DNA of 63,317 nt, filler included, from Chrysochromulina tobinii (GCA_001275005.1; 5 parts of 5 records of this genome joined end to end with filler, not necessarily neighbours in it), one strand, 5' to 3'. Positions 344-51,993 are shown, counted from the first letter of the whole stretch. The notes: generated from the sequence alone by a model not told the origin. Numbers and translations: made by a program.

Positions 344-733
344 CGGGCAACGGCGCGGGCCGACTGGCCACTTTTTCGGAAAATGTGGCCGGCCAACAAA
401 ATGGCCAACTTTTGCGTATTATCGCAACCCGCAACCAAAAATAGCCGACCAATCCGACCTAACGCTTTCAACAGCCTTGGCTGGTACCCCCGTCATCGCA
501 GCGATGCTCTCAGGGCTCGTTCCGCGCGACCTGGTGCTCCGCTGCCACCTCTACCTATGGTATTATTTTTTACTTTTTACCCGTTCTACCTGTCCCGGCT
601 CCGCGGTGTCTTTTTACCCGGAACCGTGAACTGAAACTGCAAACTCACCAAGGGGCTGGGAGCCCCTTGAACTCACACAGGCGTCTCCCTACTCGTCGCC
701 GAAACCACTGGCGCGCTCGCTCCAGCCTCGTTC

Positions 734-3700
734 ATGACCATCCTCCGCCTCCTCGCGCGCCAGACGCGCCTCCCCGGCGCCACTGACAACACGCGATTCG
801 GCGAGGGCCGCGCGTCCCCCCGCAGCTTCCTCACGCACCACGTTGCCAACATCTCCACCGCCATGAAGCCGCCGACGCCCAAAGTCGCGTCTGTCGTGTT
901 AACGTTCACACAGGCACACAGAGGGCGCCACAAGGAGATGATCACACTCTTCGCCGCCACGCCGCCTCACCCGCAGGAGCTCCTCGCAGCGCGCGAGATC
1001 CGTCGCTACATCTTCTGTAGTACCGGTGTCCTGAGCAACATTTCGTTGCGTGGTTGCGGCGATGCCATCCTAGACGAGGCGCGCGGAAACGTCGTGCTGC
1101 TCACTGCCGCCTGTGCGCGCAAAGCTCGCGGTCCGGAAGACGCGACGCTGCGCGCCGTCTCGAACTTGGAGGGCGAAGCGCTCCTCGTGCACCACTCCGT
1201 CGAGCGCAACCCCTTCGTCGTCGGGGGCGGCAGTGCGCTCGGCTTGCTCTACGGAGCGTACCACTTTGCCGAGATCGCCCTCGGCGTACACTTTGGCATC
1301 GGCGGCGACATCTGCGTGCAGAGGATCTGGGCAGGCTATCTCGCTGACGCTTCGCGCGCGCTCCGGGAGCGCGGCGGCGTGCGCGCGCCGCGCTTCGCGA
1401 CGCGCGGTCTCAACCCTTTCCACGATTTTTTCGAGGGGCCTGATCTATGGGAAAAAGGGAACTACAAGATTTACGGCGCGCAGATGGCGAAGCTGCGGCT
1501 AAACGTGCTGGTCTTGCACAACTACAACGACTACCAAGAGGAAGGCGCCGTATATGGAGCTGGGTACGCCGAGCCGACGGTCTGGCTCGGCCCACCGTCA
1601 GACGTGGATGGCCTTGGGCACGTGCACTCGTCGTACGCCAACGGCACCATGCCAATCAGCTGGGCCTCCACATGCATCTCCAAGGACGGCGCTCCGCCGG
1701 TGCCGACCGGGTCGTTTGTGAGCGGCGCCGCGCTCCTTTTTGGCACCCCCTGCGTGCAGGAGCGCTGGCAGCCGTTGTCCGCAGCGGTCGATACCGTCGA
1801 GGCGCACGTTGCCGCCTTCAACGACGCCTCCAGTCTGTTTGGTGAAGTGTTCCCGCCGCTGCGAGCGCGCGGCGTGAAGAGTGCGATCGGCTCGGAGGTG
1901 CCGTCAGCACCGCCGAAGGTGTTCAATACGACGCTGGTCTACCTAAATGCCTTCCGCGCTCCATCCGACAGCCTGCTCACCTCGGGTTACTACGCTTGTG
2001 AGTACTCGACCAAGTGTGACTGGATGTGTGGGACGATCGCGCAAGGCAGGCGCCTGGCGTGTGCGCCCGAATTCGACTACCAGGAGCCGTACCTTCATCA
2101 CAACGTCCAAGGATGGGTGCTCGCCAACCAAGCCGCGGGCACGCTGCCCCTGGCCACGTACTACAACGGCTCCAAAGCGTCGCCCGGGAACACGTTGCTC
2201 TGTGTGGAAGAGGAAGAGGGTTCGCGCTGCAATTACATGCCGTGCTGCAATTATGTGCGCGTGCGGGCCGAGGGGTACGTCTACCCACCTTCGGTGCGGC
2301 AGGACGCGCTCCCAGAGGGGATCAACCTCGGCACCGACCTGTACCCGCTGCGGCTTTGGAGGTGCAACGCCACCAGCCTCGATCACGGTCGTGCGCGCGG
2401 AGATCCGCAGCCCTGTGATCCAGCCTCGGGCGACATGATGGCCACCTCGTCGCCGCTGCTCGAGCAGGACGCGGCGGCGATGGGGTACGTGCCTTGCGCG
2501 CACATAGGCCAAGTCTTCCGCCACCGGCCGCGCGCGTGGCTGCAATCGACCTACGAGGGCGCGCTGTCCCGGGCGACACGTGCCTTCCAGCTCGACTATT
2601 TCTGGCTGTGGACGCAGGAGGTGTGGAATGCGCGAGACCCGTTTGGCAGCCATGGGAACGCTTCGTGGGCTGCGGTGGGCAGCGACGCGGTGCAGACCGC
2701 CGTGGACGACTTCCTCGCCCTCGACGGCGCGCGGCACGCCCTCGGCCTCTCCGATAGTCTTGGCCTCGTCACAGGAGGCTGGACCCTCGGCCCACGCCAG
2801 CAGCGCGCCTACTTTGACTCAGTGCTGCCCCAAGGCTGGGCGCTCGCATCGCTCGATGAGCTGCTCGGTACGGTAGACGTGGAGCCCGAGTACGCGAACG
2901 TGACGCGCCACCCGTCGATCGTCATGCCCTGGCTCGAGGACGATCCGCATTTGGGTGTCAGCCAGCTCTGGGTCAGCCGCACGCTTGCGCACCTCGAGCA
3001 GGGCGCCGTGTTGGGCGCGACGGGCGCCGTGCCGATCACGTGGCGCATGGAGGCGATTGCGCCCACGCTGTATGCGGCCTCGCGGGCGAGCTGGGAGGCG
3101 AATCTCACCGCGCGCCAGGTGTGGCAAGATTGGTCCACTGGCGAGTTTGGCCTCACCTCCAAGGCGCACGCAGACGCCTTTGCGACGGCGTGGCTGGACC
3201 TCGAGGGCATCGAGGGCACTCTGACCTTCGCCGGCTGCCCGGGCACGGTGCAATTCTGCTCCGACGGCGCGGCCATCGACGATGTAGAGCGGCGAGTGCT
3301 CAGCCTGCTGTTGCTCGCGCCGCTCGTGTCGCCCTCCCCCGAACATGCCGACCGCTGGCGCAAATGGAGCTCGCTGCTCACGTATACCGTCGCCGCAGCG
3401 CGCGCCGCGTGCGTGGCGGACGAGTACAAGGGCTTCGCGGCGCAGGCGCGCGCGCTGCCGCCCTCGGATGAGCGACGCGCCCTCGCGAACGACACCCTTC
3501 TTCCACTGAAGCAGCGGATGGTGGCCGCAGCTACCAACCTGACCACGTTGCTGCTCGAGGCGACGGACGGGCCGGGGGAGATGGGTATGCTTGCGACGCT
3601 CCACTTGAGTGTTCTCTTCCTTGAGGCCAGCGACAGTGGCTTTGGCGAGAACCTGCTCAATCAGAGCGCGGCAAACGAACTCGAGATCTGGCTAGGGGGC

Positions 3701-4102
3701 GCGCTGCCGCCCTCAGCGCGCCTGCCCGCCCCCGGCTTCCGTGGCACCGAGCGGATCGTCTGCCTGGAGCCACGCTCGACCGCGGACTTTGCCGAGATGA
3801 TGCAGCTCAGCGTGAGTATCCTCTCTGTACCACAGCCTGTTCCTCTCCGGGTCAGCGTGACCGCCTTCCATCGCCCGCTCGGCCAGGGCAAGTGGATTCC
3901 AGTGCCCATGTCCGTTCACGGCACCCAGGGGCAAGTGTACCGAGTTAGTCTACCCGTGGATGCACACGGCGGCGAGGACTTTGAGTACTACATCCGCGCT
4001 GACCTGGTGGAGGGAACATCCTTGTACTGGCCGCCAGGCGCGCCGGAGCGCACGCAGACGGTAGTCGTGATGGGCGGCCCCGAGGCTCCCAAAATGTCCT
4101 GA
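734..4102 (+). CDS. Large glycoside hydrolase-like protein: GH20/GH67-type N-terminal domain plus TIM-barrel-like domain, with an inserted DUF5648-like repeat region
   Basis: 1122-aa intronless ORF. Motifs ELLAAREIRRY, GGSALGLLYGAYHFAE, PRFATRGLNPFHDFFEGPDLW, YFWLWTQE, TGGWTLGP and PWLEDDP. The true start may be later (~938). Confidence 0.6.
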   Translation: MTILRLLARQTRLPGATDNTRFGEGRASPRSFLTHHVANISTAMKPPTPKVASVVLTFTQAHRGRHKEMITLFAATPPHPQELLAAREIRRYIFCSTGVLSNISLRGCGDAILDEARGNVVLLTAACARKARGPEDATLRAVSNLEGEALLVHHSVERNPFVVGGGSALGLLYGAYHFAEIALGVHFGIGGDICVQRIWAGYLADASRALRERGGVRAPRFATRGLNPFHDFFEGPDLWEKGNYKIYGAQMAKLRLNVLVLHNYNDYQEEGAVYGAGYAEPTVWLGPPSDVDGLGHVHSSYANGTMPISWASTCISKDGAPPVPTGSFVSGAALLFGTPCVQERWQPLSAAVDTVEAHVAAFNDASSLFGEVFPPLRARGVKSAIGSEVPSAPPKVFNTTLVYLNAFRAPSDSLLTSGYYACEYSTKCDWMCGTIAQGRRLACAPEFDYQEPYLHHNVQGWVLANQAAGTLPLATYYNGSKASPGNTLLCVEEEEGSRCNYMPCCNYVRVRAEGYVYPPSVRQDALPEGINLGTDLYPLRLWRCNATSLDHGRARGDPQPCDPASGDMMATSSPLLEQDAAAMGYVPCAHIGQVFRHRPRAWLQSTYEGALSRATRAFQLDYFWLWTQEVWNARDPFGSHGNASWAAVGSDAVQTAVDDFLALDGARHALGLSDSLGLVTGGWTLGPRQQRAYFDSVLPQGWALASLDELLGTVDVEPEYANVTRHPSIVMPWLEDDPHLGVSQLWVSRTLAHLEQGAVLGATGAVPITWRMEAIAPTLYAASRASWEANLTARQVWQDWSTGEFGLTSKAHADAFATAWLDLEGIEGTLTFAGCPGTVQFCSDGAAIDDVERRVLSLLLLAPLVSPSPEHADRWRKWSSLLTYTVAAARAACVADEYKGFAAQARALPPSDERRALANDTLLPLKQRMVAAATNLTTLLLEATDGPGEMGMLATLHLSVLFLEASDSGFGENLLNQSAANELEIWLGGALPPSARLPAPGFRGTERIVCLEPRSTADFAEMMQLSVSILSVPQPVPLRVSVTAFHRPLGQGKWIPVPMSVHGTQGQVYRVSLPVDAHGGEDFEYYIRADLVEGTSLYWPPGAPERTQTVVVMGGPEAPKMS

Positions 4103-4683: not shown

Positions 4684-5919
4684 TCATCGACCGTGCTGCT
4701 GCCTGTAGCGCGCGCCGAAGCTGCCTGACTCATTGTACTTCAGGTGCCCAAACTGCCCCTCTTGCATGGGGAAAGAGCGCTCACCGGCATGCGGGAACCA
4801 GCACATGATGTCATCCCACGGTCCGACTGCCGGGCTCGGCGGCACCTGCTCCAACTCGGACAGCTGGTTGCCGTACATGTACGAGTTGGCCCCGTGGTAG
4901 AGCCCGTCATAATACGCAGTCAGAGGGCGCTGCGGATGCGGAAACATGTTATGCGTGCCCATCATATCGAAGCAGAGCCCGCCCATCCCGGGCATGAGGC
5001 GCAGCAGGTCAAAGGGCTCGCCGAGGTTGGCTTGCTTCATCAGCCACGGTGAGAACTCATAGAGGACGTACCGAAAGCGCAACGCCCGAAGGGAGTTGAT
5101 CGCGCCACGAAGGACCTTAAGTTCATAGCCCTGCGTGTCGATCTTGAGCAGATGCACGCTCGATGCCCACGACGGCAGCACCGAGTCGAGGCGCACCGAG
5201 GGGACTTCTATCGTATTACTGCGCCCTCGAGCAGCTGCCAAGGAGCCCAGCGCACCATTATTGCCGCTACGGGGCAGAGAGACGGTGGTGTCTTCGTCGC
5301 CCACGGCCGCATGGATGATGTACGCAAAGCCGCCGTGCTGAGGCCTCCGAAGCGGTGGGAGCTCCCATCCCTTGCCACTCGCATCTCTGTGCAACTGGAC
5401 GAATTGCACGTTTTGGGCATTCCCATACCTTGCACGGATGTTGGCCAGGTTGTCGGGCATGGGCTCAAAGGCGAGGACGACAAAGCCGTTCTGCACCGCC
5501 GCCATCGTCTCCGCTGCGTCTTCACCCAGTCCGATGTCAACAATGATCGAGCCGAATCCCCCAGCAAAGATAGTCTTCGGTGGCTGCATGTTGCCCGCGC
5601 CGCACTGCCACTCACGAAGCAGCCCATGGATCCCATCAGATAGGTCTGCAAGCTCTGCACGGCCGCGATGCTTGCCGTGGTACGGGCGAGTCCCATCTTG
5701 TTGAAGTGCTCTTGAGCTCGTGGGTGCTGTGAGCTCCTCCCGCTTCAAGATGCTGCTCGCTTTCCTCTCTGCCGCTAGCGCATCACCACCACCACCCACC
5801 CGGTCAGTTTGCAATCGTCGACCGACGGATAGGCATGTACCAGCGGCTCCAATGAAAACGCCAACAAGGACCGCGCCGAGGAGCGCGGCCAGAGAAGAAG
5901 AAGTCACGTTCTGAACCAT
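4684..5919 (-). CDS. FkbM-family (Methyltransf_21) SAM-dependent methyltransferase with N-terminal membrane anchor
   Basis: IIVDIGLG, VLAFEPMPDN, HAAVGD, VRLDSVL and LLKIDTQGYELKVLRGA motifs; hydrophobic N-terminus. Confidence 0.85.
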   Translation of the reverse strand: MVQNVTSSSLAALLGAVLVGVFIGAAGTCLSVGRRLQTDRVGGGGDALAAERKASSILKREELTAPTSSRALQQDGTRPYHGKHRGRAELADLSDGIHGLLREWQCGAGNMQPPKTIFAGGFGSIIVDIGLGEDAAETMAAVQNGFVVLAFEPMPDNLANIRARYGNAQNVQFVQLHRDASGKGWELPPLRRPQHGGFAYIIHAAVGDEDTTVSLPRSGNNGALGSLAAARGRSNTIEVPSVRLDSVLPSWASSVHLLKIDTQGYELKVLRGAINSLRALRFRYVLYEFSPWLMKQANLGEPFDLLRLMPGMGGLCFDMMGTHNMFPHPQRPLTAYYDGLYHGANSYMYGNQLSELEQVPPSPAVGPWDDIMCWFPHAGERSFPMQEGQFGHLKYNESGSFGARYRQQHGR

Positions 5920-6255
5920 GGCTCTTGCTTCCTCGATGACAGTTGCAATTGGCTGTGACGCGCTGTCGTTTCGTGAAACTAAAAGAGGGGGGTGACATAC
6001 GAAAAATGAATATGTTGGGTGCTCAGCTCGTCTTGATCAAGATACAAGACCAAGAGGTGACGCGACATGTAGTGTGGTTCTGCCCTCCGGATCGCGCGCG
6101 CGGTTGGCACCTGGTGTTTTGACTTGACTTGACTTGACCTGACTTGACTTTTTTTCCTTTGTCTTCGCGCCACAAGTCTCCACCGCGGCTGCGCCAACAC
6201 TCCACCAACCTTCTCGGCAGAGCGTGCCGTCAGCGGCACTTCGCCTCGCGCAAGA

Positions 6256-9200
6256 ATGCTCCCGAGCACCAAGCGCCCCTTTGACGGTGGCACCTCGCAC
6301 CTGTCCGCTTACGAGGCCAAACGCGCCAAGAACATGGAGGACAATGCCGAGGTGCGCTCACTCACAATTGGCGGCCCTACTGCCTTCTTCTCACAATGCC
6401 CCGTGTTTTCCGTTCTCTCGGCAGGAGCTGCGCAAGCTCGGGCTCATGGGGAGCATCGTCCCAAAGGCCAGTGCCCCGACGGTCTCGGGCGGCGCGATGG
6501 TGCGCTCCTCCGATCCGGATGCAGCGCTCAAGGCGCCGGCGAGGCTGCTGCCATCAACCCTGTGGCAGCAGTCGGTCGCGGCGCTGCCGTCCGCCAAGAC
6601 GCGCGCCCAGCAGCTGGCCGATGACCTTCTGACCGACTGCGAAGTATGCGGCGGCGGCGACGACGAGCCAAACAACGAGCTGCTGCTCTGCGACAGGGAA
6701 GGCTGCGGGCGTGGCTACCACCAAAGGTGCCTCAATCCCATTCTCGAGCGCGTGCCGAAGCGCCGATGGCTGTGCCCCGAGTGCGTCGAGGCCTTCGGGG
6801 CGACTGGACCCGTGCCAGACGCCGGTGTGATGGGCTGCGCTGACGACGCGGCCGACTCCGTCGGCGCGACCCCGAGGGCGCCCGACAGCTGGTCGTCGTC
6901 GGCGGCGACGGCCTTTGGCGCCGCCTCGGCCTCGGCGGGATGCTCCTGCTCTGCAGCCGGGGCGGCGGCGGCGGCGGCCCTCGGCGGCAGCAACGCCACG
7001 GGCGCGGCCGACGCCCTCGACGCGGCCTCGGCAGCGGGTGTGGCGCGGGACTGGTGCACGCGCCGCCGCTCGATGTTGCAGCAGGCGCGCGCGGCGCTGC
7101 ACCTGGCGACGGTGCCTGCCGCGCTGCTGTGCCGCGAGGAGCAGCTGCGCACCGTACTCGACTTTTGCGGCGAGCGCCTCGCCGCTGGCCAGGGCGGCGC
7201 CATGTACGTCTCTGGCTCCCCGGGGCTAGGTAAAAGCCTCACCATTCGGCAGGCACACGATCGACTGGCTGAGGAGCTCTCTCCTTCGCACCGGCTCGCA
7301 CTCGTCAACGCCTTTCACCTCGCGTCGCCCGCGGCGGTGTATGCCACGCTGCTCGCCGAGCTCGGCGCCGAGCCGCGCGAGGCCGGTGAGGCCGGCGGCT
7401 CCGCTGCCATCACGCGGCGTCCAGAGGCTGAGGCTCGGATGGCGTTCGAGGCGTTCATCTTGCGCAGCGACGCGCCGGCGGCCTCTGGAGGTGGCAATGG
7501 CGGCGGCAAGCGCGCCGCACCCAAGGCCGCCGCGCACATGCCTGTGCCCGCCGCTAATCCGCCCAGGGCGGCGTCGGCCAAGGGAGCGATTGCCAAGGAG
7601 ATGGCAGCCCCGGAGGCGGCAGGTGCGAACAGGTGCGACGGCATGCAACCCTCGCGACCGACTCGGAAGCGGCGCGGCGCGGCCGAAGGCGTTGAGCCCG
7701 GGGCTGCTACCGCCACCGGAGCCGAAGCCGAGGGCGAGGGCGTCTGCGAGGGCACATTCGACGACGACGACGGCGGCGGCGCGGGTGACTCAATGGAATT
7801 CATCGAGAGAGCGGCCGAGGGCGTCGGCCGACCTCTTAAGGCGCGCTCCAAGATGGCTGCACACGCTATCGGCTCGCCGGGGAGCGACGGTGAGGCACCC
7901 GCACTGCTGTCACCGGTGCATGGCGAGGCGCTCGGATCGCCATCCGTCGACCCTGGCAGCCAGCGCCGCTTGCCCACCATGTTTCAGTCGATTCCTGCCG
8001 CCTCGCAGAGGGCAGCAGCACCGCCGCCGAGCCTGCTGCCCTCGCGCGTCGCGTCGCGCTCTGGCCGGACGGCGCCGCCCGGCAGCGTCGTACTGCCCAG
8101 CAGCGTCGTGGGGTCAACGCCCAGCAGTGCCATGGCTGGGGCCTACTGTGGCGGCGCCGCGCCCCCTGGCAGCGTCGCGCCGCTCCGCAGCGCGATGGTG
8201 CCGCGCAGTGCTGCCGCGCCGATGACCTCAGCGCCGCCCATGTCGGTGACCAGCAGCGATGGCGGCCCAACGATCGGCCGGCCGGCGGCTCCCATTGAGG
8301 AGCGGCGCCAGTCGCCTCGCGCGCATGCCTCCTCGGCCGCCCGTGCCGCCGCTGCCGCAGAGGAGACGGGCGCTTGCGACGGTGGTGTCGGCGACGCTCG
8401 TGTCCTCGCGCCCATCCCGATGGCGATGCCACTGGCTTCGGCGGCGACGGTGGACGATGGTTATCCGGTGGCTCCGTGCAGCGCCATGAAGCGTATCTCG
8501 CCACGTGGCAACCCCTCAACCGCGGCACAGCTCGCCGCGGCCGCGGCCGCGGCGCGCGAGCCCTCATCTTCCTCGGGTGCCTCGAACAGCAGCAGGCGCA
8601 TCGCTCAGCAAGATCAAGACTGGCTCGAGATCATGCACAGCCAGTCTGATGACGGGTCCGGCGCCGCCGCGGGCGGCGCGCCGGCTGCGAGCGGCGCGGC
8701 TGCTGGCGCGCCCTCTCCTGCCAGCGGCAGTGTCGGCGTCGTCGTCGGTGACAGCGCCTTTAGCGCGCGACTGCCCAAGTCTGCGCGTCCGAAGCCAGCG
8801 CCGCTCGCAATCGTCGCGGCCGAGGCGGCGGCGTTTGCAGGCGCGGACGGATCGGCCTCGAGCGCGCCACCCACGGACCAGCTGCACGTGGGTAAGCAGG
8901 TACGCGCCAAGTACGCTGCCTCGATGCCGAAGGCGAAGCGGCCGCGCAACAAGTTCGTTGACCGCTGGTACACGGCGGTTGTGACGGCCGTGCATGCGGA
9001 TGGCTCGTGCGATGTCACGTACGACACCGACGGCGTCGTCGAGTACGGCGTCCTTCCCGCGTATGTCAGAGCGCTCTCGAGCGTCGACTTCGCCTCGCCG
9101 AACGTCGCCGGGCCGCCCTCGCGCGCCCCCGGCGAGGCGCCCTCATATCCCGCCCTGCTCAATGCCCAGCTGCCAAAGGTCGATGCATCTTCGGCGGCTG

Positions 9201-12200
9201 CCTTGGCGGCTTCCGCCTCGGGGCCGCGCGCGCTGGCAACGGCGTCCGACACGGCGGCCGGCAGCGATTTGCCGTTTGGCGCGGCCTCTGCAGTGGGCGA
9301 GAAGCTGCAGGCGCAGGACTCGCGCTCGGGGATCTGGTACGACGCCAAGGTCGTCAAGATTGACGGCGAGGGCGACGGGTGCTCTCTCAAGGTGCACTAC
9401 ATGGGATGGAAGGCACGCTTCGACGAGTGGATCCGGGTCGACCAGGGGCGGCTCCGGGCGATGGGCGCGCCCTCGCCGCGCGCGCCTCAGCCTGACGGCT
9501 CCGCGCCCGAGGCGGAAGACGACGACGAGGCGGCGGCCGTGGAAGCTCACGATGATACGGCGCCTTCGGAGGAGAAGCCCATGTGCGATCGCCTGTACGG
9601 CGTCGAGTGCGGCGTGGGCGATATGATGCACGCCAAGGATAGCTACGGCAAGTGGTACGACGCCAAGGTCGTTGAGGTGCGCGGTGAGGGCGAGTCGCGC
9701 GAGCTCAAGGTGCACTACATGGGGTGGAAGGCGCGCTTTGACGAGTGGATGCAAGTTGGAATCGGGCGGCTGAAGCCCAAGGGTGGTCCCTCGCCGCCAC
9801 GCACGCTCGAGGAGATGGCTGCTGCCAGGGAGGCTGCCGAGCGCGAGGCGGCGGACAAGGCTGAGGCTGCGGCTGAGGCTGCGGCGGCGGCGAAAGCGCT
9901 TGCTGAGGCCGAGGCTCAGGCGAAGGCGAAGGCAAAAGCGAAGGCGAAGGCCGAGGCTACTTCGGCAAAGGCCGAGGCGGCGAAGGCCGAGGCGGCGAAG
10001 GCCGAGGCGGCGAAGGCGAAGGCAGCGGAGGGGGAACATGCGAAACGTCTCGACTACGATCCCTCGAGCTTCGGGGTTGATAGCGTCATCGGCGATCGCC
10101 TGCAAGCCCAGGACAACAAGGGCCACTGGTATGACGCAAAAGTAGTGGATGTGCGCTGCGAGGGCCTCGACCGCGACGTCAAGGTGCATTACATGGGTTG
10201 GAGGACGCGCTATGACGAGTGGATCCTCGTGACGGACCGACGGCTGCGGCCCATCGGGGCGAGCTCACCACCAGCGCATCGGGCCGGGCCCCCACAGAAG
10301 AGCCCACCTCGGCAGAGACCCTCGGCAGAGGAGGCACCGCGCGAGGACGCAAAGATGCTCGATCCGGACTTTGGCAACGACGCTGTCGTGGGCGATAAGC
10401 TAAGAGCGATGGACTCACGCGGCGACTTCTACGACGCACGCGTGGTGGCTGTTGATGACGAGGGTGAGACCCGCTCGCTGCGCATCCACTTTCTTGGCTG
10501 GAACAAGCGATGGGATGAGTGGGTCGAGGTCGGCGCCGGGCGGCTGATGGAAATCGGCGCGCTGTCGCCATGTGTGGTCCAGCCGGACGGGAGTGCGCCA
10601 GAAGACGAACATTTCGGCACCTTGCTGCAACCCGGCGACTACCTCGAGGCTCGTGATTCCATTCATGGCAAGTGGTATCACGCCAGGGTGGTCGACACTG
10701 AGGGCGAGGGCTTCGATAGGCAACTTCTCGTGCACTTTCTTGGGTGGAAGGCCAAGTGGGATGAATGGGTTCCTGTCGGCGAGGGTCGGCTGCTTCCATG
10801 GGGCACTCCGGCGCCCGACGAGGAGGGGGAAGAGGAGGGTGAGGAGGAGGAGGCGGAGGGGGAGGGGGCGGAGGCGGAGGCGGAGGAGGCGGAGGAGGGG
10901 CAGGAAGCGATGAAAGAGGCGATGGATACGGAGGAAGATCCCGCATTTGCAGTCGACGCTGCGGTGGGCGACTGGCTGCGGGCCAAGGACAGCTACGGCA
11001 CGTGGCACGATGCCAAGATCATCGAGCTCAAAGGCGAGTGCAAGGCGCGCGAGGTCAAGGTTCATTATAACCGATGGAACAAGCGTTGGGATGAGTGGAT
11101 CGAGGTCGGCGCCGGGCGACTGAAGACGATCGATGCGCCGTCGCCGTGCGAGATCCAGCCGGACGGGAGCGCACCCGAGGCCGAGGCGGAGGAGGAGGAG
11201 CCGGAGGAGGAGGAGCCTGAGGAGGAGCCTGAGGAGGAGCCTGAGGAGGATGACAACGAGGAGCAGGAGGACGGCGGGAAGGCAGAGCTTGACCCATCTT
11301 TCGGCAACGACCTTGTCGTGGGCGATAAGCTAAGAGCGATGGACTCAAAGGGGAAATTTTACGACGCACGCGTGGTGGCTGTTGATGACGAGGGTGAGAC
11401 CCGCTCGCTGCGCGTCCACTTTCTTGGCTGGAACAAGCGATGGGATGAGTGGGTCGAGGTTGGCGCCGGGCGGCTGATGAAAATCGGCGCGCTGTCGCCA
11501 TGCGTGGTCCAGCCGGACGGGAGTGCGCCCGAAGACGAGGCGGGGGAGGAGGCGGAAGAGCCCGATGAGGAGCCTGATGAGGAGCCTGATGAGGATGACA
11601 ACGAGGAGCAGGAGGACGAGGAGTCCAAACCAGCTGCGGCTCCCAATCCTTCTTTTGGTATTCACTCCTCAGTGGGCGAGAAGCTGCAGGCGCAGGACTC
11701 GCGCTCGGGGATCTGGTACGACGCCAAGGTCGTCAAGATTGACGGCGAGGGCGACGGGTGCTCTCTCAAGGTGCACTACATGGGATGGAAGGCACGCTTC
11801 GACGAGTGGATCCGGGTCGACCAGGGGCGGCTCCGGGCGATGGGCGCGCCCTCGCCGCGCGCGCCTCAGCCTGACGGCTCCGCGCCCGAGGCGGAAGACG
11901 ACGATGAGGCGGCGGCCGTGGAAGCCAAGGAGCCCCCTCCGCCGCCCCCGCCTCCCTCGATGAGCTACGAGAACTATGGCGTCGACGCCAAGGTAGGCGA
12001 CGCACTCGAGGCGCTCGACGTGCTTGGGAAGTGGCATTCGGCGCGCGTCGTGCAACTCGAGGGCGAGGGCATGGCGCGCACGGTCCTCGTACACTTCCCC
12101 GGTTGGAACGCAAAGCGATGGGATGAGTGGATTCAAGTAGGCACGGGGCGGCTCAAGCCCCTAGGTGCTCCAGCGCCCAGCGCCCCGCCTGCTCAGATGC

Positions 12201-14507
12201 ACTTGAAGGCGCGTTTGGAGGCCACCGCAGCGGAGGATGACGAGCAGCCGATGGCGGTTGAAGAGGAGGAGGAGGAGGAGGAGGACAATGAGGACGACGA
12301 GCCGGTGGCCGAGGCGGTGGCCGAGGCAGCTGCTGAGCTAGCTGAGCGCGACGAGGACGCGGCCATGTACGGCGTGTGCCTGGCCGCTGGCGACAAGCTC
12401 GAGGCAAAGGACCCGTACGGTAACTGGTACGTCGCCAAGGTGATTGGTGTGCGCGGCGAGGGCGAGACGCGCGAGGTCAAGGTGCACTACATGGGGTGGA
12501 AGGCGCGCTTTGACGAGTGGGTGCATGTGGGCACCGGGCGGCTGAAGCCCGAGGGTGGTCCCTCGCCGCCGCGGCCCGCGTCTGACGCGATGATCGCGCT
12601 CCTCAAAGCTCCCGAGGCGACCAAGGGCGCGTCTTCCCTCAAGGGCCTCTCACGTCGCGACAAGGGGTTGTCCACCGCGATGCTCATCTCGGTGGGCGGC
12701 AGCCGCCGCGCCGTGGCGAGCGCCTCGAGCGCCTCGCGCTCGCTCGTGCCCTATGAGCTCACTGGAGCGGTGGCGCAGCCATCGAACAGGCGAACGACCC
12801 ACGCCCAAGGCGGCCGGCGCGCGCGGCGGCGCGCTTGGCGCCGGCGGCGGGCGCGCGGGCGGCATGTGCATTGTGGTGCTCGACGAGCTCGACCAGCTTG
12901 TGAGCCGCCAGCAGGCGATCCTGTACTACCTCTTCGAGCTCGCGGCCCGGCCTGGCTCGCGCTTGGTGCTCATCGGCGTCGCGAACGCGCTCGACTTGAT
13001 CGACCACTCGCTGCCGCGGCTCGATGCCAAGGGGGCGGCGCCAACACTGCTCAAGTTCAACCCATACTCTCACGACGAGCTCTCGTCGATCATCCAGCAG
13101 CGTTTGGAGCCCATCGAGGCGACGCTCGGCACGACGCTCGTCGATCGGATGGCGGTGACCTTTGCGGCCAAGAAGGTGGCGGCCGCATCGGGCGACGCGC
13201 GCCGCGCGCTCGAGGTATGCCGCGTTGCTGCCGACAAGGCGATCGCCGAGCTCAAGGACTTTGAGGAACGTTTGCCACCGCCGCCGAGCCGCACAGCGCG
13301 CGCCGCGCCCTACGGCGCGCCGTACATGATGCGCGGCAAGTCGCCGCTCGCTCCGCGCCCATCGCCCCTCATCAGCGATGCCGAGCGGCAGCGCGCGTCC
13401 ACAGCCGCAGCGAGCGGCGCTGCCGGCGTGAGCTGCGGCGCCGGCGCGGGCGCGACGCCCAGTTGCACGCCGAGCGGGGCCGGAGCGCTGACGGCGGGCG
13501 CTGAGGTCTCGCGACTCGCGTTGCGGCCGCAGTTGCCACCGCGGCTGCCTGTGTCGGCCAGGGGGTCGGCCGTGCCGCCCTCGTCCGTTGGATCCGACGC
13601 ATCTGCCGCCTCGGCTGCCTCCACGGCCATCGCCACTGCTCCGGGCATGCTGCCGCCGCCCGCCTCTGCGTCTGCCGCCTCGAGCGCCGCCGGTTCGTCC
13701 TCCGCGGGCTCATCCTCTGGCGCAGCCGCGGGCGCCTCTGCGGACGTCTCCGGCGGCACCGAGCTGCTTCCCGCGTGGTCCGCGGACCCGCCGATCCGCT
13801 TCGATCACATGAAAGATGCGCTCGGCGTCGCGTTCCGCAGTGCTTCGTTCCAATTGCTCAAGTCGCTGCCGCACCACCAGTCACTCATCTTGTGCACGAT
13901 GGTGCTGCGCATGCGTCGGCTGACTCAGCAGGTGCGGGACGAGGCGGCGCGAGCGGCCGAGGCGGCCAAGAGGGCGGCCGAGGATGCGGCCGAGGCGGCG
14001 GCCAAGGAGGCGTGCACGCGCGAAGGCCCGGAGGCGGAGGCTGGTGCCGAGGCTGACCGCGGTGCGGATGCGGCCGAGGGTCACACCTCCGACGGTGCCG
14101 TCGCCAAGGTTGCCGCCGCCGCCAGGGGCAACGGGCGCGGCAGCGGTCGGACGACGAGCGCCGCCGCGGCAGCGGCTGCCGCCGCTGCGAGTGCCGCAGC
14201 CGTGAGCCGCGCGGCCGCGCTCGCAGCGGCCACGGGCGGGCACGAGCGGTGTACAATCAACATGCTGTCGGCGGAGTACGACAAGCTGTGCGCGAAGGCG
14301 AAGCTGCCTGCGCTCTCGCGGCAGGAGCTCGCCAACATGTGCGAGAACCTCGCCGTGTGCGGGCTACTCGGGCTCGGCGGCGCCACCGGCCGCCCCTCGC
14401 CCCACGAGAAACTGCAGCGCGCCGTTTGGCTGTGCATTTCGCAGGACGATCTGGAGCTCGCTACGTCCGAGCTGCGCGTATTCAAGCAGATGCTCGCGAC
14501 GAGCTGA
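6256..14507 (+). CDS. CDC6: CDC6/ORC1-family AAA+ replication initiator (CDC6-like) with PHD finger and an internal Tudor/chromo-barrel array
   Basis: Exon 1 6256-6351, then GT-AG intron 6352-6424, giving SAYEAKRAKNMEDNAE|ELRKLGL. PHD finger CEVC..LLLCD..C..YH..C..WLCPEC at ~6638-6785. Walker A YVSGSPGLGKS at ~7205-7237. Walker B IVVLDELDQL at ~12870, then LIGVANALDL, SGDARRALEVCR and a winged-helix-like C-terminus. A +1 frame change near 12750-12860 is unresolved (intron or indel). Confidence 0.8.
9290..12550 (+). repeat. Ten coding chromo-barrel/Tudor-knot repeats (~60 aa), preceded by one Tudor/Agenet-like unit at ~8885-9075
   Basis: Consensus VG[DE]KL.A.D..G.WY.AKVV...GEG..R..KVH[YF].GW..R[FW]DEW..VG.GRL recurs at ~9293, 9613, 10085, 10385, 10628, 10963, 11315, 11672, 11990 and 12385. 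Units 1/8 and 4/7 are near-identical at the DNA level. Confidence 0.9.
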
Positions 14508-15362
14508 GACGGCGCGGCGAGGGACGGAGATGAACAGCTGAACCAGTGGAGGCAAGGCAGGCTGAGGGGATGCGGATGGAAAGGGGGAAACCACAAACGC
14601 TGAGAAACTGAACAGCATCCGAATGCCGAAGAGCGAGAGAGTGCGAGAGGGGCAGAGATTATACAGAGTACGGACGGGGGTACCGTAAAGGGGGGGCGAC
14701 TGAGGGAGAGAGGACGGTAGAAAAACGATGCTGCATGTGACAGCCGTCCGGTCCGAATTCGGCGTCAACGCGTCCGCAATATTAATTAATTTTAATACAT
14801 CTCGAACCGGTAATCGAACGGGGTAACGCTCGGCTAACCGTTAACTTCTCCCTGAGCCGCTCGACGCATTTCCGACTAAAAATGGAGCAGGGTCCGTTAC
14901 CGGGGCACGAGGCCTCTGGAGGCCAGAGCCGAGCGCCCGATAAGGCCCGTGCGCGGCCCAAGAGGCATTACGCATCAGACGGCGCCTGGGCATGAGGTGG
15001 GACCTCATGTCGTGTCGCGGTACTAAACCCATGACTAAACCGTGAAGGACTGTAAAGGTGTAGCCTCAAAGTCGGGGTTGAATATAGGTTGATGAGTTTG
15101 ACACACAAGGAAACGCCCCTGAACGGGGGGTGGGGGTCGCAGTCCTGCAGACGGGGCGGGGTGTGCTGCGCGCGCCGCCGCCCACGTAACAAATACAGAA
15201 GTACCGCCGGTCACACCTCCGTCCATTGCGATAGAGGCCCCCGTGCTTGGGGGTCCGGTGAGTGTGCGCGTTTGTGTTTCACAGCCAATGTTTAGAATTC
15301 GACACCCAGCAGCAGCAACGAACGGTTACAAAACCTTGGTTGACGTCGCGCCGCTCAACAAC

Positions 15363-17555: not shown

Positions 17556-19412
17556 CTACGCGGCGGGCGCGCACGCACGATCCGGCTCAAGCCGGAACAG
17601 CGCCACGTCATGCGGGGCGACGGTTTGGCTTATCGTGGCGTTCATACCCAGCCCTGTGAGATTGCGCCCGCCCCAGATGTCGTGCGCGATCCACCCACAG
17701 CTGGGTGCGGGCCGTAGGCGAGAGAGCTGTACGGACAGTGTCTGCGGCAGAGGAGCGCGATTGAAGAGCGCGATCGCCCAGCCACCGCCTTCGAGTCCGG
17801 CAGCGTACACCTCGTTCGTCTGCGCTGCGGTGAAGTTCGTCGAGAGGCACATCCCCTTCTGCGAGACGGACCGTATCAGCGTGCCGGGGTGCTCCGGATG
17901 GGCGTCGCCGGGTGTCGCAGGGTCGATCTCCCACCACCAACCCTGCCGATCGCTCGGGACGGCGCCTGGCACGCGGTCGCAACGATCCAGAAGTGGCACG
18001 TCCCCGGAGCTTGGCGCGGTGAGGCAGAGTAACGGTGCGGCAGGATCGCTATTGTTCTGGGTGACGTTTGCCACCAGCGCCCACGGAGAGTCCGTCGGCC
18101 GGTGCGTAGGGGCGGCTGGGGTGAAAACCTGTGTGGGGAATGGAACATCGCCGATGACGCAAGGGTCTTTGGACCAGTCATCGCACTGCCGAATGATCAA
18201 CGGCGAGGTGGCGCTCGGCTCGCAGCTGAGCACGGAGAGGCAGTGCGTGACCGAGCCTGCATTGCGCACGCGCGGGAAGGGGGGGGTCGTCACGCCCACC
18301 ACCGGCATACTGACCCTCCCCTCGTATGAGCTTCCCCACAGCTGCTGCGGGTCGCTTGGGACGCATGGGCGCAGCACGGAGACCGTCGCTGTCTCGGCAT
18401 GGTAGCCCGGGTAGAAGTCGTCGAGGGGCTCCGCCTGTAGCCCGAGGGGATCCTCATGGATGCGGCGCAGCTCCTTGTTCTTGACGATCTGCAAGATCTC
18501 GGCTGACATCCGCGACGCGTCCGCGCCGAGCAGCAGCGGTGACTTGAGGACAGACCAAAGGGTGAAGTGGCTTCGCGCCTCAGCTAAGGTGAGCCCAGGC
18601 CCGCCCCAAGAGAAGTTTGACGGCAGCGCGCCGATCTCCAGCATGTCCATGTCGTTCCACCCGCCGGGGCCGGCGTATCGCGCCAGCTGTGGGATCGCGT
18701 TAGCCCCGTTCAGACCCTGGATGATGTTGAGCCAGCCGTCCGCGATGTCCCCGTTGACTCTCCACATATTGCCCACGCCGTTTCCCCACGTCCACGGCTC
18801 TGCATAACCCTCGGCGCAAACAGAGTGGACCATCGGCCGGCCCGTCGCGTTGATCGCGTCGCGATACTCACGCCACGTCTCCTCATCCACCGGCCCACCA
18901 CACGCGTCCACCTCGATAAAGTCGGCGCCCCATCTCGCAAACGTTTCCATGTCGATCGCGACGTGCCCTGTGGGGCCGCTTCCAGAGCCGACACATCCGC
19001 CGCACGTTAAGTCGCCGATGTCGGTGTAGATCCCGAGCTTCATCCCACGCTCCTTGAGGAACCTGCCAAAGGCTGCCATGCCATGCGGCCAGCGCTCCCG
19101 GTACTCACCCGTCTCGGTGAGCTCGCCCGTCAGAGGATCGCGCGGGCCGAAGCAAGGCTCCTGCACCACAAAGTAGCTGAAGCCACCTTCGCCAACGAGG
19201 TCGGCGTCCACTAGCGCTTGCGCCCAGTGTTGGCACTGTGACTCATTCACACTGCGCATGATCCATTGTTCGGGCACGCACGTTGGTGGGGAACACGACC
19301 GATTTTTCTCCGAGGTGAACGGCCAAATGTTCCACGTCGCGAATCCGCGAGGCGGCGTCCGCGCGAGGCCGTTGTCCCACACGGTCACCGTCGCAGGAAG
19401 CCAAGCCAGCAT
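17556..19412 (-). CDS. Glycoside hydrolase family 27 (alpha-galactosidase-like) with ricin-type beta-trefoil region
   Basis: DNGLARTPPRG..TWN, GMKLGIYTDIG..TCGG, TFARWGADFIEVDAC, WRVNGDI, GPGGWNDMDMLEIG and HFTLWSVLKSPLLLG motifs; QxW/Cys-rich ricin-like segment; C-terminal beta-sandwich (VAPHDVALFRL). Confidence 0.9.
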   Translation of the reverse strand: MLAWLPATVTVWDNGLARTPPRGFATWNIWPFTSEKNRSCSPPTCVPEQWIMRSVNESQCQHWAQALVDADLVGEGGFSYFVVQEPCFGPRDPLTGELTETGEYRERWPHGMAAFGRFLKERGMKLGIYTDIGDLTCGGCVGSGSGPTGHVAIDMETFARWGADFIEVDACGGPVDEETWREYRDAINATGRPMVHSVCAEGYAEPWTWGNGVGNMWRVNGDIADGWLNIIQGLNGANAIPQLARYAGPGGWNDMDMLEIGALPSNFSWGGPGLTLAEARSHFTLWSVLKSPLLLGADASRMSAEILQIVKNKELRRIHEDPLGLQAEPLDDFYPGYHAETATVSVLRPCVPSDPQQLWGSSYEGRVSMPVVGVTTPPFPRVRNAGSVTHCLSVLSCEPSATSPLIIRQCDDWSKDPCVIGDVPFPTQVFTPAAPTHRPTDSPWALVANVTQNNSDPAAPLLCLTAPSSGDVPLLDRCDRVPGAVPSDRQGWWWEIDPATPGDAHPEHPGTLIRSVSQKGMCLSTNFTAAQTNEVYAAGLEGGGWAIALFNRAPLPQTLSVQLSRLRPAPSCGWIAHDIWGGRNLTGLGMNATISQTVAPHDVALFRLEPDRACAPAA

Positions 19413-19451
19413 CCGAACCGGTCAACGTTCTCCTTTCATCAGGGCACACTC

Positions 19452-19833
19452 GTACCGGTAAAAAGACACCGGGGGAGCCGGGACACTCATCACGGGACAC
19501 ACGGGACACGTTCTCTTTCATCAGGGCACACTCGTACCGGTAAAAAGACACCGGGGGAGCCGGGACACTCATCACGGGACACACGGGACACGTGGACGCA
19601 CAAAGGCACACAGACCACACAGACGAACCTCACAACCATCCAAACCCAGTTCCAACAACACACACCCAGCACGTCAGCGCGACGACCGAAGCCGCGGCCG
19701 ACTCAACAGCCGCAGGCCCCCGGGAGCCGACCGCTCCCCGCGGCCGACTCAGAAGAGGCCGCCCCCAGCGAACCCGACCCTTACCGTAGTCCGTACCGTG
19801 TGTGTCCCGGCTCCCCCGGTGTCTTACCGGTAC
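19452..19833. mobile_element. MITE-like non-autonomous DNA element with ~33-bp terminal inverted repeats; left end tandemly duplicated
   Basis: GTACCGGTAAAAAGACACCGGGGGAGCCGGGACAC at 19452 and 19534 is the inverse of GTGTCCCGGCTCCCCCGGTGTCTTACCGGTAC at ~19802-19833. The internal sequence is shared with 28840-29070. Confidence 0.75.
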
Positions 19834-28106: not shown

Positions 28107-28721
28107 TCACCTCTTCCCATTTTTGGGCACGTTCACATGGCCGTATGGGCAGTGCCTACAACCGTGGCCGCAGCACGGGCGAGTCTTGAGCTGGAGCGCT
28201 GTGAAGACCGAGTACCCCGTCGCCGGGTCCACGTACTGCTCGTACCCACGCTCACAGGCTACACGGTGGAGCAGCGACACAGTCGCCTTCTCTTGCCCAT
28301 CCACGAGGTCTTCAATGTCCTCAAAGTCCTCCGCCAGAGCGCTGTCTCGGCGGATCTGCTGAAGCCTCAGTGGCCCGGCTTTCCGCAGAAGTGGCCTTGC
28401 AGGCAGCGCCTCGGACTGCGACGCGACCGCTGCGGTCGCCAAGGCTGAGGATGCCGTGCCGACCGATGGCATGTCTGGCGTGTCCGTGGTTCTCTGGAGA
28501 TTCGCTGGCTGCACGGCGAGCGTTTCGCCGCGGCCGTCGATTTGCACAGCGCAGTACCCGGAGGGATCCCCGGAGGCCTCGTCCCAAGACACCACACGGC
28601 CATTGAGCCCGTTGAGCTCAAAGCTCGAACCGCTGAATCCGTACAGCGTCACCAGCTTACCAACGTACGAGATTGACTCTGACTGTGGCGCTGTTGTAGG
28701 TGGCGGCGCTGCTGGGAGCAT
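28107..28721 (-). CDS. DUF5522/C1orf53-like Cys-rich protein with N-terminal SH3/KOW-like module
   Basis: C-terminal HRVAC..G...YVDPATGYSVFT...L..RPCCGHGCRHCPY. N-terminal GKLVTLYG....ELNGLNGRVVSWD...AVQ.DG....AVQPANL. Likely ATG at 28721. Confidence 0.75.
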   Translation of the reverse strand: MLPAAPPPTTAPQSESISYVGKLVTLYGFSGSSFELNGLNGRVVSWDEASGDPSGYCAVQIDGRGETLAVQPANLQRTTDTPDMPSVGTASSALATAAVASQSEALPARPLLRKAGPLRLQQIRRDSALAEDFEDIEDLVDGQEKATVSLLHRVACERGYEQYVDPATGYSVFTALQLKTRPCCGHGCRHCPYGHVNVPKNGKR

Positions 28722-28839
28722 GAGCGAAGGACGTTTGCGCCGGACGCGGAGACGACGTCGAAGGCGCAGGCGTCGTCGTTGTACATTGGCGATCCAAAAC
28801 AAGACAAGTCAAGTCAAGTCAATCGTTCCTTCAGAACCT

Positions 28840-29110
28840 GTACCGGTAAAAAGACACCGGGGGGAGCCGGGACTCACACGGACACGCGGACGCACAAAGG
28901 CACACGGACCGCACAGACGAACCTCACAACCATCCAAACCCAACACACAACCAGCACGTCAGCGCGACGACCGAAGCCGCGGCCGACTCAAGAGCCGCAG
29001 GCCCGGAGTCGACCGCCCCCCGCGGCCGACTCAGAAGAGGCCACCCCCAGCGAACCCGACCCTGCCTCCACCCGCTCCCAGAGCGCCTCCCCGCGCCTGT
29101 ACCGGTACTG
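28840..29110. mobile_element. Second, right-truncated copy of the MITE-like element
   Basis: Same left TIR (GTACCGGTAAAAAGACACCGGGGGGAGCCGGGAC) and internal GACGAACCTCACAACCATCCAAACCC...CAGCGAACCCGACCCT as 19534-19780, on a different contig. Confidence 0.75.
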
Positions 29111-29253
29111 TACTCACTCTTCTCAGCCACTCCATTCACATTCTCATTGTGAATGGGGGCTCCCGAAACCTTGAGGGGAAAACGATGCGGAGCGTTCACA
29201 CCAATCCAAAACCCCCGCGGCCGTCACGAGCGCGTCACTTCGGTCACTTTGGC

Positions 29254-45681: not shown

Positions 45682-46157
45682 CGTAACCGCGAGTACAGCG
45701 ATCTTGAGACAATTGCACGTAGAGCGCGTTCGTCATTCTGCATGGGTTAAGTTTCGGCGCAAACTTACTGCACTGCACGATCACGTTCGTTCACGTTCAC
45801 ACAGTTGAAGAGAGGGCTTCTGCGCGCTCTGGCGAGCTAGCGCGATCAGCGTCAGTCGTTTTCGCAGATTGCGCACCCGCCGGCCGCACTGGCCGAGGAT
45901 TTCCCCTACCAGCGCATGTCTTGATGGGTGACTTGGTTGATCGTTGACTTTGTTGCGTTTCATCAAAGCTCTGCCATTCACACAAACAATTCATTTCCAC
46001 TGGCGCACTCCCTCCCGAGTTCATATGTGGGGCCTGCCCTTCTTCTCTTTCTTTGGCTGTATCGCAGCTCTCTGCCTACATGTGTCTCAGTCCGGAGTCC
46101 TGCTTTGTATTGTATTGTCTTCACAGCTGTCCTCCTTCCGTGTGTGCGTGTATTAAC

Positions 46158-51893: not shown

Positions 51894-51993
51894 NNNNNNN
51901 NNNNNNNNNNNNNNNNNNNNNNNNNNNNNNNNNNNNNTTAATTAATTAANNNNNNNNNNNNNNNNNNNNNNNNNNNNNNNNNNNNNNNNNNNN
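51894..51993. other. Artificial contig-join linker
   Basis: N44-TTAATTAATTAA-N44. Confidence 0.97.

What the first reader, a model, noticed from the sequence alone, without database searches (positions are those of the whole stretch)
6256..14507. CDC6-like initiator with its AAA+ domain split by a ~1,850-aa insert carrying a Tudor/chromo-barrel array
Seen: Walker A (~7205-7237) and Walker B (~12870) are 5.6 kb apart, versus well under 100 aa normally. The insert holds low-complexity linkers, one Tudor/Agenet-like unit and ten chromo-barrel repeats with intact aromatic residues (WY, HY.GW, FDEW). There is also an N-terminal PHD finger and a YE..R..N...N...L..LGL helix. Established: ORC1 reads chromatin through BAH (plus PHD in plants), while CDC6 usually has no reader domains; the insert lies near the initiator-specific motif region. 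Inference: multivalent methyl-histone reading wired directly into origin licensing.
Basis: partly seen in the sequence, partly recalled or inferred. Interest (0 to 1): 0.8.

Follow-up and report, generated by a model that had tools for sequence, protein, structure and literature searches.

The report
Algal CDC6 split by reader array
In a haptophyte alga (Chrysochromulina), the transcribed gene for the replication-licensing ATPase CDC6 carries a 1,796-residue insert with ten chromo-barrel domains in the middle of its ATPase domain, which likely tethers the protein to methylated chromatin and so would help decide where DNA replication starts.

Summary
Real, and not an assembly chimera. One DNA run and four other contigs lack that base, and another assembly gives one ORF, so the protein is 2,725 aa. 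Intron 1 is spliced in RNA, RNA contigs cover the insert, and no GT..AG joint removes it. Both AAA+ halves group with haptophyte-type CDC6, not ORC1, with catalytic motifs intact. The insert (1,796 aa) sits between the second initiator-specific helix and the Walker B strand. It holds ten PHF20L1/MRG-type chromo barrels whose cage residues are mostly kept, with dN/dS about 0.37 between copies. Ten orthologues lack barrels (Walker A to B 83-215 aa versus 1,883), while C. parva and environmental contigs share the insert. The PHD and N-terminal helix are clade-wide, not special to this gene. A published survey counts one CDC6 and one ORC1 in the matching proteome. Likely mechanism: a looped-out multivalent methyl-lysine tether on the licensing ATPase; binding and function are untested. 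New variant of a known kind.

The parts
6256..6351 (+). Exon 1 (32 codons), with the first part of the YE..R..N...N...L..LGL helix (from 6310)
   Evidence: same exon in gene models P0002 and P0221
6352..6424 (+). 73-nt GT..AG intron
   Evidence: spliced joint in 3 of 4 RNA runs
6425..14507 (+). Exon 2, 2,693 codons once the extra base at 12804 is discounted; whole protein 2,725 aa
   Evidence: L001 translation P0045
6638..6784 (+). PHD finger; closest solved relatives ATXR5, CHD4, KMT2C, DPF and KDM5 PHD fingers
   Evidence: Pfam PHD E=5.6e-10; PDB search
7043..7471 (+). N-terminal half of the AAA+ domain: Walker A (7214-7237), beta-2, both initiator-specific-motif helices
7472..12860 (+). 1,796-aa in-frame insert in the loop between ISM helix 2 and the Walker B strand
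7472..8881 (+). Low-complexity Ala/Pro/Ser/Gly linker; amino-acid changes between strains look unconstrained, frame kept
   Evidence: 12 non-synonymous, 4 synonymous over 541 insert-linker codons in L006; no indel in L006
8882..9079 (+). Possible Tudor/Agenet-like unit (weak)
   Evidence: Pfam Agenet E=0.031, under cut-off
9293..12556 (+). Ten chromo barrels of about 58 aa starting at 9293, 9611, 10085, 10385, 10631, 10961, 11315, 11672, 11990, 12383; linkers 24-100 aa, several strongly acidic; copies 1 and 8 lie in a 256-bp block 99.6% identical, copies 4 and 7 in one 94% identical
9806..10039 (+). Predicted single long Ala/Lys/Glu helix (about 78 aa) between barrels 2 and 3
   Evidence: single-sequence AlphaFold model, pLDDT about 77-92 there but 56 overall
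12804..12804 (+). One extra base in a short C run: assembly error in this window that shifts the frame just before Walker B
   Evidence: proteins P0001, P0019, P0025, P0027, P0028 read through
12861..13262 (+). C-terminal half of the AAA+ domain: Walker B (DE 12882-12887), sensor 1 (GVAN from 12975), lid and sensor 2 (GDARR from 13191)
13776..14504 (+). C-terminal winged-helix region (Cdc6_C), itself interrupted by an Ala-rich stretch as in orthologues
   Evidence: Pfam Cdc6_C E=2.2e-9

Best explanation
This is a transcribed 2,725-aa CDC6 gene of Chrysochromulina whose AAA+ domain is interrupted by a 1,796-aa in-frame insert of ten chromo barrels, and the insert likely loops out of a normally folded ATPase and acts as a multivalent methyl-lysine tether to chromatin. 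Shown: one reading frame, splicing of intron 1, RNA over the insert, CDC6 ancestry of both halves, intact Walker A, Walker B and sensor motifs, insertion after ISM helix 2, and purifying selection on the barrels. Inferred: (1) it is the cell's working CDC6; (2) the two halves refold, since the C-terminal end of ISM helix 2 points away from the DNA channel and this loop already varies by more than 100 aa among orthologues; (3) the barrels bind methylated lysine, and the invariant cage Asp (PHF20L1 D23 equivalent) favours mono- or di-methyl marks such as H4K20me1/2 or H3K4me1; (4) ten weak sites on flexible acidic linkers, together with a PHD of the unmodified-H3 type, would span several nucleosomes and raise CDC6 occupancy on marked chromatin, biasing where ORC-CDC6 loads MCM; (5) three CDK-consensus sites inside the array might switch this off.
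For: One ORF in L001/L002. Extra base absent in X8 and L001-L004. Coding indels in L003/L004 are 3 nt while the 3' flank has 1- and 7-nt indels; L006 has no indel from 6256 to 9413 but 6 just upstream. Spliced RNA in 3 of 4 runs, exact RNA pieces across the insert, and an intergenic bin with no cover in 4 of 4. Tree: 11-row clade 96/90, CDC6 side 100/100 against BAH-ORC1; each half alone is nearest P0003 and P0004 with end branches 0.18 and 0.26; AU p=0.023 against grouping with ORC1. Barrel model pLDDT 89.7; Foldseek top hits MRG2 and PHF20L1 Tudor 1, TM 0.80-0.86. PHF20L1 D23, F47, W50 and Y54 positions kept in 10 of 10, Y29 in 8 of 10; D23A and F47A abolish methyl-lysine reading in PHF20L1 (PMC5686351 passages). 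dN/dS below 1 in 41 of 41 computable barrel pairs of 45, median 0.37. PMC7058166 Supplementary Table 1 counts one CDC6 and one ORC1 in Chrysochromulina sp. CCMP291. ISM helix N-termini face the channel (PMC7450096 passage). Precedent for methyl-H4K20 readers aiding MCM loading: ORC1-BAH and BAHCC1 (PMC12219854 passages).
Against: No binding or functional data. Ten orthologues work without barrels, so the array is not needed for licensing in this clade. No RNA contig spans Walker A to Walker B, and none listed crosses 12804; the RNA runs are short contigs at low depth. The Tyr next to the cage Asp in PHF20L1 (Y24) is not kept in any barrel. A motif after sensor 1 that has Arg in all 11 other rows compared has His here, also in the environmental protein P0001, hinting at relaxed constraint. 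Selection on the barrels could predate their arrival in CDC6. The long first linker shows pN/pS about 1. In Drosophila, disordered extensions of Cdc6 are dispensable for MCM loading in vitro (PMC7450096). The published count of one CDC6 uses internal ids that I could not map to KOO33990.1, and no whole genome was held.
Confidence: 0.55

Rival explanations
1. Tolerated passenger: a mobile barrel landed in a permissive, expansion-prone loop of a working CDC6 and was amplified by unequal crossing-over. The barrels are kept folded and soluble but do not steer licensing.
For: The loop is low-complexity and variable in orthologues (83-215 aa spacing). Single barrels of the same subtype sit in six unrelated proteins. 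Recent duplications (copies 1/8 and 4/7) and possible shorter forms: P0046 runs from barrel 1 straight to barrel 9, and one RNA contig jumps 930 nt between copies 4 and 7. Linker pN/pS about 1.
Against: Most copies are deeply diverged at synonymous sites (pS 0.3-0.8) yet keep the cage Asp, Trp and two aromatics in 10 of 10, with dN/dS about 0.37. Surface cage residues need not be kept for folding alone. The insert is shared by C. parva and environmental strains.
Confidence: 0.2
2. The array binds something other than origin chromatin marks: methylated non-histone partners (as PHF20L1 Tudor 1 does with pRb and DNMT1), free histones through the acidic linkers, or condensate partners. It would then serve CDC6 stability, cell-cycle control or a chromatin role apart from origin choice.
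For: The closest solved relative reads methylated non-histone proteins as well as H3K4/H4K20 (PMC5686351). Linkers after barrels 5, 6, 7 and 9 have net charge -22 to -28. All three full CDK-consensus sites of exon 2 lie in the array.
Against: The co-occurring PHD and the partners of the same barrel subtype elsewhere (PWWP, chromo, TAZ domains) point to chromatin. The barrels are near neutral in charge, which argues against RNA or DNA binding.
Confidence: 0.15
3. A repurposed paralogue, like Sir3 from Orc1: the ATPase scaffold now serves silencing or chromatin organisation, and a compact CDC6 elsewhere licenses origins.
For: Extreme architecture; one Arg-to-His change in a conserved motif; the genome could not be searched.
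Against: The published survey lists only one CDC6 and one ORC1 for the matching proteome. No second named Chrysochromulina CDC6 appeared. The AAA+ branch is not long (0.26 against 0.14-0.34 for its four nearest relatives), and catalytic motifs are intact.
Confidence: 0.07
4. Artefact: the insert is an intron, a nested gene or a misassembly, or the gene is a frameshifted pseudogene.
For: The window has a frameshift at 12804. The public model KOO33990.1 splices out Walker B and parts of the insert. No single read or RNA contig spans the whole gene; the order inside the array rests on short-read assemblies of what may be one culture.
Against: The extra base is absent in 4 of 4 spanning loci and one DNA run. 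One X8 contig runs 6121-8924 and another 12491-14800. Environmental contigs and C. parva join each AAA+ half to the insert in frame. No GT..AG joint skips the insert.
Confidence: 0.03

Closest known systems
Eukaryotic CDC6 (human 8RWV chain F; yeast and Drosophila ORC-Cdc6-DNA structures)
   Same: AAA+ initiator-clade core, lid and winged helix; Walker A, Walker B and sensors intact; tree position.
   Different: Walker A to Walker B is 1,883 aa against 73-76 in two vertebrate CDC6; N-terminal PHD; ten chromo barrels inside the ATPase domain.
ORC1 with BAH (metazoan H4K20me2 reader) or BAH-PHD (green lineage)
   Same: Works like it if the best explanation holds: a licensing ATPase that carries its own histone readers (PMC7058166 and PMC12219854 passages).
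   Different: Not ORC1 by tree; no BAH domain; readers are inserted inside the AAA+ fold, not in front of it; ten copies, not one cassette.
PHF20L1/PHF20 Tudor 1 and MRG15/MRG2/EAF3/MSL3 chromo barrels
   Same: Five-stranded barrel, TM 0.80-0.86, about 30% identity, cage positions kept.
   Different: Known ones are single or paired units in acetyltransferase/deacetylase complexes (own knowledge); here ten beads on long linkers; Y24 equivalent not kept.
MBD-CDC6 fusions of Chara and Marchantia (database proteins P0069, P0075, P0235)
   Same: CDC6 that has gained a chromatin-binding module.
   Different: MBD is N-terminal and of the methyl-DNA-binding family; the AAA+ domain is not split.
BAHCC1 tandem Tudor
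   Same: Tudor-type reading of H4K20me1 that promotes MCM loading (PMC12219854).
   Different: A separate adaptor protein, not fused to an initiator ATPase.

Membership tests
CDC6 | Initiator-clade AAA+ with Walker A Lys, Walker B DE, sensor 1 Asn, sensor 2 Arg | tested here: met
   (in L001; the window's own frame is broken at 12804)
CDC6 | [quoted passage not shown] | tested here: met
   Pfam PF22606 E=2.1e-10, PF09079 E=2.2e-9
CDC6 | Phylogenetic placement with CDC6, apart from ORC1 | tested here: met
   100/100 split; halves agree and AU p=0.023; no archaeal outgroup used
CDC6 | Compact AAA+ domain (usual, not a defining catalytic feature) | tested here: not met
   1,883 aa spacing against median 82, range 67-215, in 139 other proteins with both motifs found; this is the variant trait
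CDC6 | Only CDC6 of its genome, beside a separate ORC1 | tested here: inconclusive
   published table gives 1 CDC6 and 1 ORC1 for CCMP291 but ids could not be mapped; no genome held
CDC6 | Binds ORC-DNA, hydrolyses ATP, loads MCM2-7 | not testable with these tools
   needs biochemistry; the complex predictor was unavailable
ORC1 | BAH domain and ORC1 clade membership | tested here: not met
   no BAH in Pfam scan; tree
Chromo barrel / Tudor-knot methyl-lysine readers | Family profile and five-stranded barrel fold | tested here: met
   PF11717 E=1.4e-55 with 9 stretches; 3 of 3 single copies scanned pass the cut-off; model and Foldseek
Chromo barrel / Tudor-knot methyl-lysine readers | Aromatic cage residues | tested here: met
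   D23/F47/W50/Y54 equivalents 10 of 10, Y29 equivalent 8 of 10, Y24 equivalent 0 of 10
Chromo barrel / Tudor-knot methyl-lysine readers | Binding to a methylated lysine | not testable with these tools
   needs peptide or nucleosome binding assays
Agenet/Tudor (unit at 8882-9079) | Profile match above cut-off | tested here: inconclusive
   15.2 bits against cut-off 27; PDB hits E>=0.22
CDCA7 HELLS-binding helix (recalled resemblance of the YE..R helix) | Sequence match to the CDCA7 helix and HELLS/DDM1 binding | tested here: inconclusive
   no PDB match, no Atlas hit; the section read of PMC11343034 gives no letters; the resemblance is recalled only

The most novel reading that the evidence does not exclude
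The only CDC6 of these algae has turned a surface loop of its AAA+ domain into a ten-valent methyl-histone reader that spans several nucleosomes, so that origin choice is made by CDC6 reading an epigenetic mark rather than by ORC1-BAH. More broadly, CDC6 has gained chromatin readers independently at least three times (PHD in haptophytes, MBD in green plants and algae, the barrel array in Chrysochromulina), making it an overlooked entry point for chromatin control of licensing.
Probability: 0.35. Interest if true: 0.8.

Novelty: new variant of a known kind. Interest (0 to 1): 0.62.

Why it matters
How eukaryotes without origin sequences choose origins is an open question, and the known chromatin-reading route runs through ORC1 or separate adaptors. 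A CDC6 with ten intact readers offers a second route and a direct test: mutate the cages, map the origins. It also shows that an initiator AAA+ domain can seemingly tolerate a 1,800-residue insertion next to the DNA-binding ISM, which marks that loop as an engineerable site. Practical point: the public model KOO33990.1 lacks Walker B and four barrels, probably because it was built around the same one-base error, which hides the architecture. The reach is limited: the array is seen only in C. tobinii, C. parva and near-identical strains.

Tried and rejected
No whole genome is held, so a second CDC6 and the domain make-up of ORC1 could not be checked directly. An intron around 12654-12789 as the cause of the frame change was considered from the sequence and dropped once other assemblies showed the one-base difference. 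The complex predictor was not available, so refolding of the two halves was not modelled. A single-sequence model of barrels 2-3 was poor overall (pLDDT 56). The N-terminal helix gave nothing useful in the Atlas or PDB. The Atlas search of one barrel gave only Tudor-knot-type clusters at 0.90 or below. Strain-level pN/pS has too few changes in barrels and AAA+ to test selection. Four runs listed hold next to none of the words and were not used. RNA bins without cover inside the gene are not read as absence. Earlier findings of the scan: none by place or words. Paper searches that found no description of a haptophyte CDC6 with PHD or barrels, of a split CDC6 AAA+, or of MBD-CDC6: (listings only; open-licence library only). 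My motif filter left three haptophyte-type rows (P0055-P0057) among the 139 'others', which sets the upper end of that range; and a regex misread barrel 6 (the residue is His, as the alignment in the same call shows). Trees used 51 and 34 selected rows of about 120 usable proteins.
Full report
Observation. The window has two long plus-strand ORFs here, 6143-13264 and 12594-14507. The first holds the PHD, Walker A, the insert and ten barrels; the second holds Walker B, the lid and the winged helix. The insert's frame has 0 stops in 1,776 codons against 16-67 in the other five frames.

The frame break is an assembly error. DNA run X8 has a contig over 12491-14800 that lacks one base at 12804. 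A metagenome scan returned six loci. L001 and L002, which are identical to each other over 16.9 kb and may be the same culture as the window, read a single 2,787-codon ORF with Walker A, ten barrels and Walker B. L003 and L004, 98.4% identical environmental contigs, also lack the base and carry two barrels and Walker B in one frame; L006 (98.5%) carries Walker A and the insert up to barrel 1. Apart from 12804, coding indels in L003/L004 are 3 nt long, while their 3' flank has 1- and 7-nt indels; L006 has six indels upstream of the start and none in 6256-9413. With exon 1 (32 aa) the protein is 2,725 aa.

Organism and annotation. The best named hit is KOO33990.1, a CDC6-like protein of Chrysochromulina tobinii CCMP291 (98% over its best alignment). 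That 1,497-aa model skips Walker B, part of the PHD and four barrels. A C. parva model is 98% identical over 989 aa and ends inside barrel 1, as L006 does; both stop in the 256-bp block duplicated between barrels 1 and 8.

Expression. Six RNA runs hold part of the stretch. In the four laid, the 73-nt intron 6352-6424 is spliced at GT..AG in three, so real mRNA is present. Exact RNA pieces cover the first linker, the Tudor-like unit, most barrels, 12540-12798 and the 3' end, and the intergenic bin 14812-15120 has no cover in 4 of 4. No GT..AG joint skips the insert. One contig jumps 930 nt between the near-identical barrels 4 and 7 with non-splice ends; this and protein P0046, which runs from barrel 1 to barrel 9, are either repeat collapses or real shorter alleles. 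No contig spans the whole gene.

Identity of the ATPase. An insert-free orthologue hits human CDC6 (E=1e-25) ahead of ORC1 (1.6e-16) in the PDB. In a 34-row tree of both AAA+ halves (243 columns) the protein sits in an 11-row clade (96/90) that includes Prymnesium and Pavlovales proteins, on the CDC6 side of a 100/100 split from BAH-bearing ORC1. The other members are unnamed and are called haptophyte-type by placement only. Each half alone has the same two nearest relatives, and grouping with ORC1 is rejected (AU p=0.023), so this is one gene opened by an insertion, not two genes joined. The end branch is ordinary (0.26). Walker A, Walker B, sensor 1 and sensor 2 are intact; one Arg conserved after sensor 1 in 11 other rows is His here. 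Supplementary Table 1 of PMC7058166 counts one CDC6, one ORC1 and one each of ORC2-5 in CCMP291; I could not map its ids, so that this gene is that one CDC6 is a strong inference, not shown.

Where the insert sits. Alignment places it between the second ISM helix and the Walker B strand, a loop of 3-4 residues in vertebrate CDC6. It is 1,796 aa long. Walker A to Walker B is 1,883 aa, against 83-215 in ten orthologues, none with a barrel, and median 82 in 139 other proteins. Both ISM helices are kept. In Drosophila ORC-Cdc6-DNA the N-termini of the ISM helices face the DNA channel (PMC7450096 passage), so the insert would leave from the far end; this is inference, since no model of the rejoined domain could be run.

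The readers. The ten barrels are 42-100% identical in protein. Their profile hits PHF20L1 Tudor 1 best (E=7.5e-12), then L3MBTL3, PHF20 and MRG/EAF3. A model of barrel 2 (pLDDT 89.7) matches MRG2 and PHF20L1 at TM 0.80-0.86. Positions equal to PHF20L1 D23, F47, W50 and Y54 are kept in 10 of 10, Y29 in 8 of 10 and Y24 in none. D23A and F47A abolish methyl-lysine reading in PHF20L1, which binds mono-methyl H3K4, H4K20, DNMT1 and pRb (PMC5686351 passages); MRG15 uses three such aromatics for H3K36me2/3 (PMC1747190 passages). That an acidic cage residue favours low methylation states is my own knowledge of MBT and Tudor readers. Between copies dN/dS is below 1 in 41 of 41 computable pairs of 45 (median 0.37; pairs are not independent and synonymous sites are near saturation). 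Of 11 hits to the barrel profile, three are this gene, six are unrelated proteins with one barrel each, beside PWWP, chromo or TAZ domains in two cases, and two are more distant. No multi-barrel donor of this subtype was found, which fits amplification in place. Linkers after barrels 5, 6, 7 and 9 are strongly acidic, and the three full CDK-consensus sites of exon 2 follow barrels 2, 3 and 10. The PHD is closest to ATXR5, CHD4, KMT2C, DPF and KDM5 fingers; that this type reads unmodified H3 tails is my own knowledge.

What is clade-wide. The PHD appears in 10 of 14 rows checked; the four without are the KOO33990.1 model and three models that start at the AAA+ domain. The YE..R helix appears in 7 of 14. 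Its likeness to the CDCA7 HELLS-binding helix is recalled and unconfirmed. CDC6 fused to an MBD occurs in Chara, Marchantia and two unnamed proteins. So 'CDC6 has no readers' has exceptions. PMC7058166 (passages and supplement text) discusses BAH and PHD on ORC1 only; its figure panels could not be seen and may bear on CDC6 architectures.

Mechanism. Most likely (0.55) the ATPase folds normally, closes the ORC ring as other CDC6 do (PMC8222357 passages), and trails a beaded reader arm that binds low-methylated lysines on several nucleosomes, concentrating CDC6 on marked chromatin and biasing MCM loading, in the way ORC1-BAH and BAHCC1 use H4K20 methylation (PMC12219854 passages). Rivals: tolerated passenger (0.2), non-histone or non-licensing ligand (0.15), repurposed paralogue (0.07), artefact (0.03). 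Whether haptophytes carry H4K20 methylation was not settled by the passages read (bioRxiv 2021.11.30.470311; its supplements are closed).

Novelty. It is a true CDC6 with an architecture far outside the family's range: a new variant of a known kind. A replication specialist would find it surprising and testable, but it is narrow in distribution and its function is inferred. Interest 0.62.

Noticed in passing
P0069 (Chara braunii), P0075/P0235 (Marchantia), P0091, P0146: CDC6-clade proteins with an N-terminal methyl-CpG-binding (MBD) domain; one family is about 2,050 aa long. One paper search found no description.
   Followed up: partly
P0003, P0036, P0037, P0044, P0057, P0199, P0200, P0220: Haptophyte-type CDC6 generally carries an N-terminal PHD, and mostly a YE..R..N...N...L..LG[LI] helix; the same helix occurs with a single barrel in unrelated protein P0048.
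   Followed up: partly
window 28363-38037 (+): 3,224-codon ORF with weak DEAD/ResIII helicase-like and Tmemb_185A matches.
   Followed up: no
window 45948-51949 (+): Two abutting long ORFs (905 and 1,096 codons, different frames): the first has an ADP-ribosyltransferase exoenzyme-type domain (E=3.4e-6), the second a DEAD/ResIII-like domain. They may be one gene broken by an intron or another assembly slip; it ends at an N gap (51894).
   Followed up: no
window 16805 and 19720-19723: Further extra bases in the window relative to L001/L002, so other frameshifts in this window may be assembly errors too.
   Followed up: no
window 4684-6036 (-) and 17556-19421 (-): Neighbours are an FkbM-family methyltransferase, divergent from the CDC6 gene, and an alpha-galactosidase; no replication or chromatin gene cluster.
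   Followed up: no
window 671-4102 (+) and 43276-45732 (-): Long ORFs (1,143 and 818 codons) with no Pfam match at E<=0.01.
   Followed up: no
window about 12432 (barrel 10): The window and L001 have Val where L003, L004 and P0001 have the consensus Asp (WYVAK against WYDAK): a strain-specific change in one barrel.
   Followed up: partly
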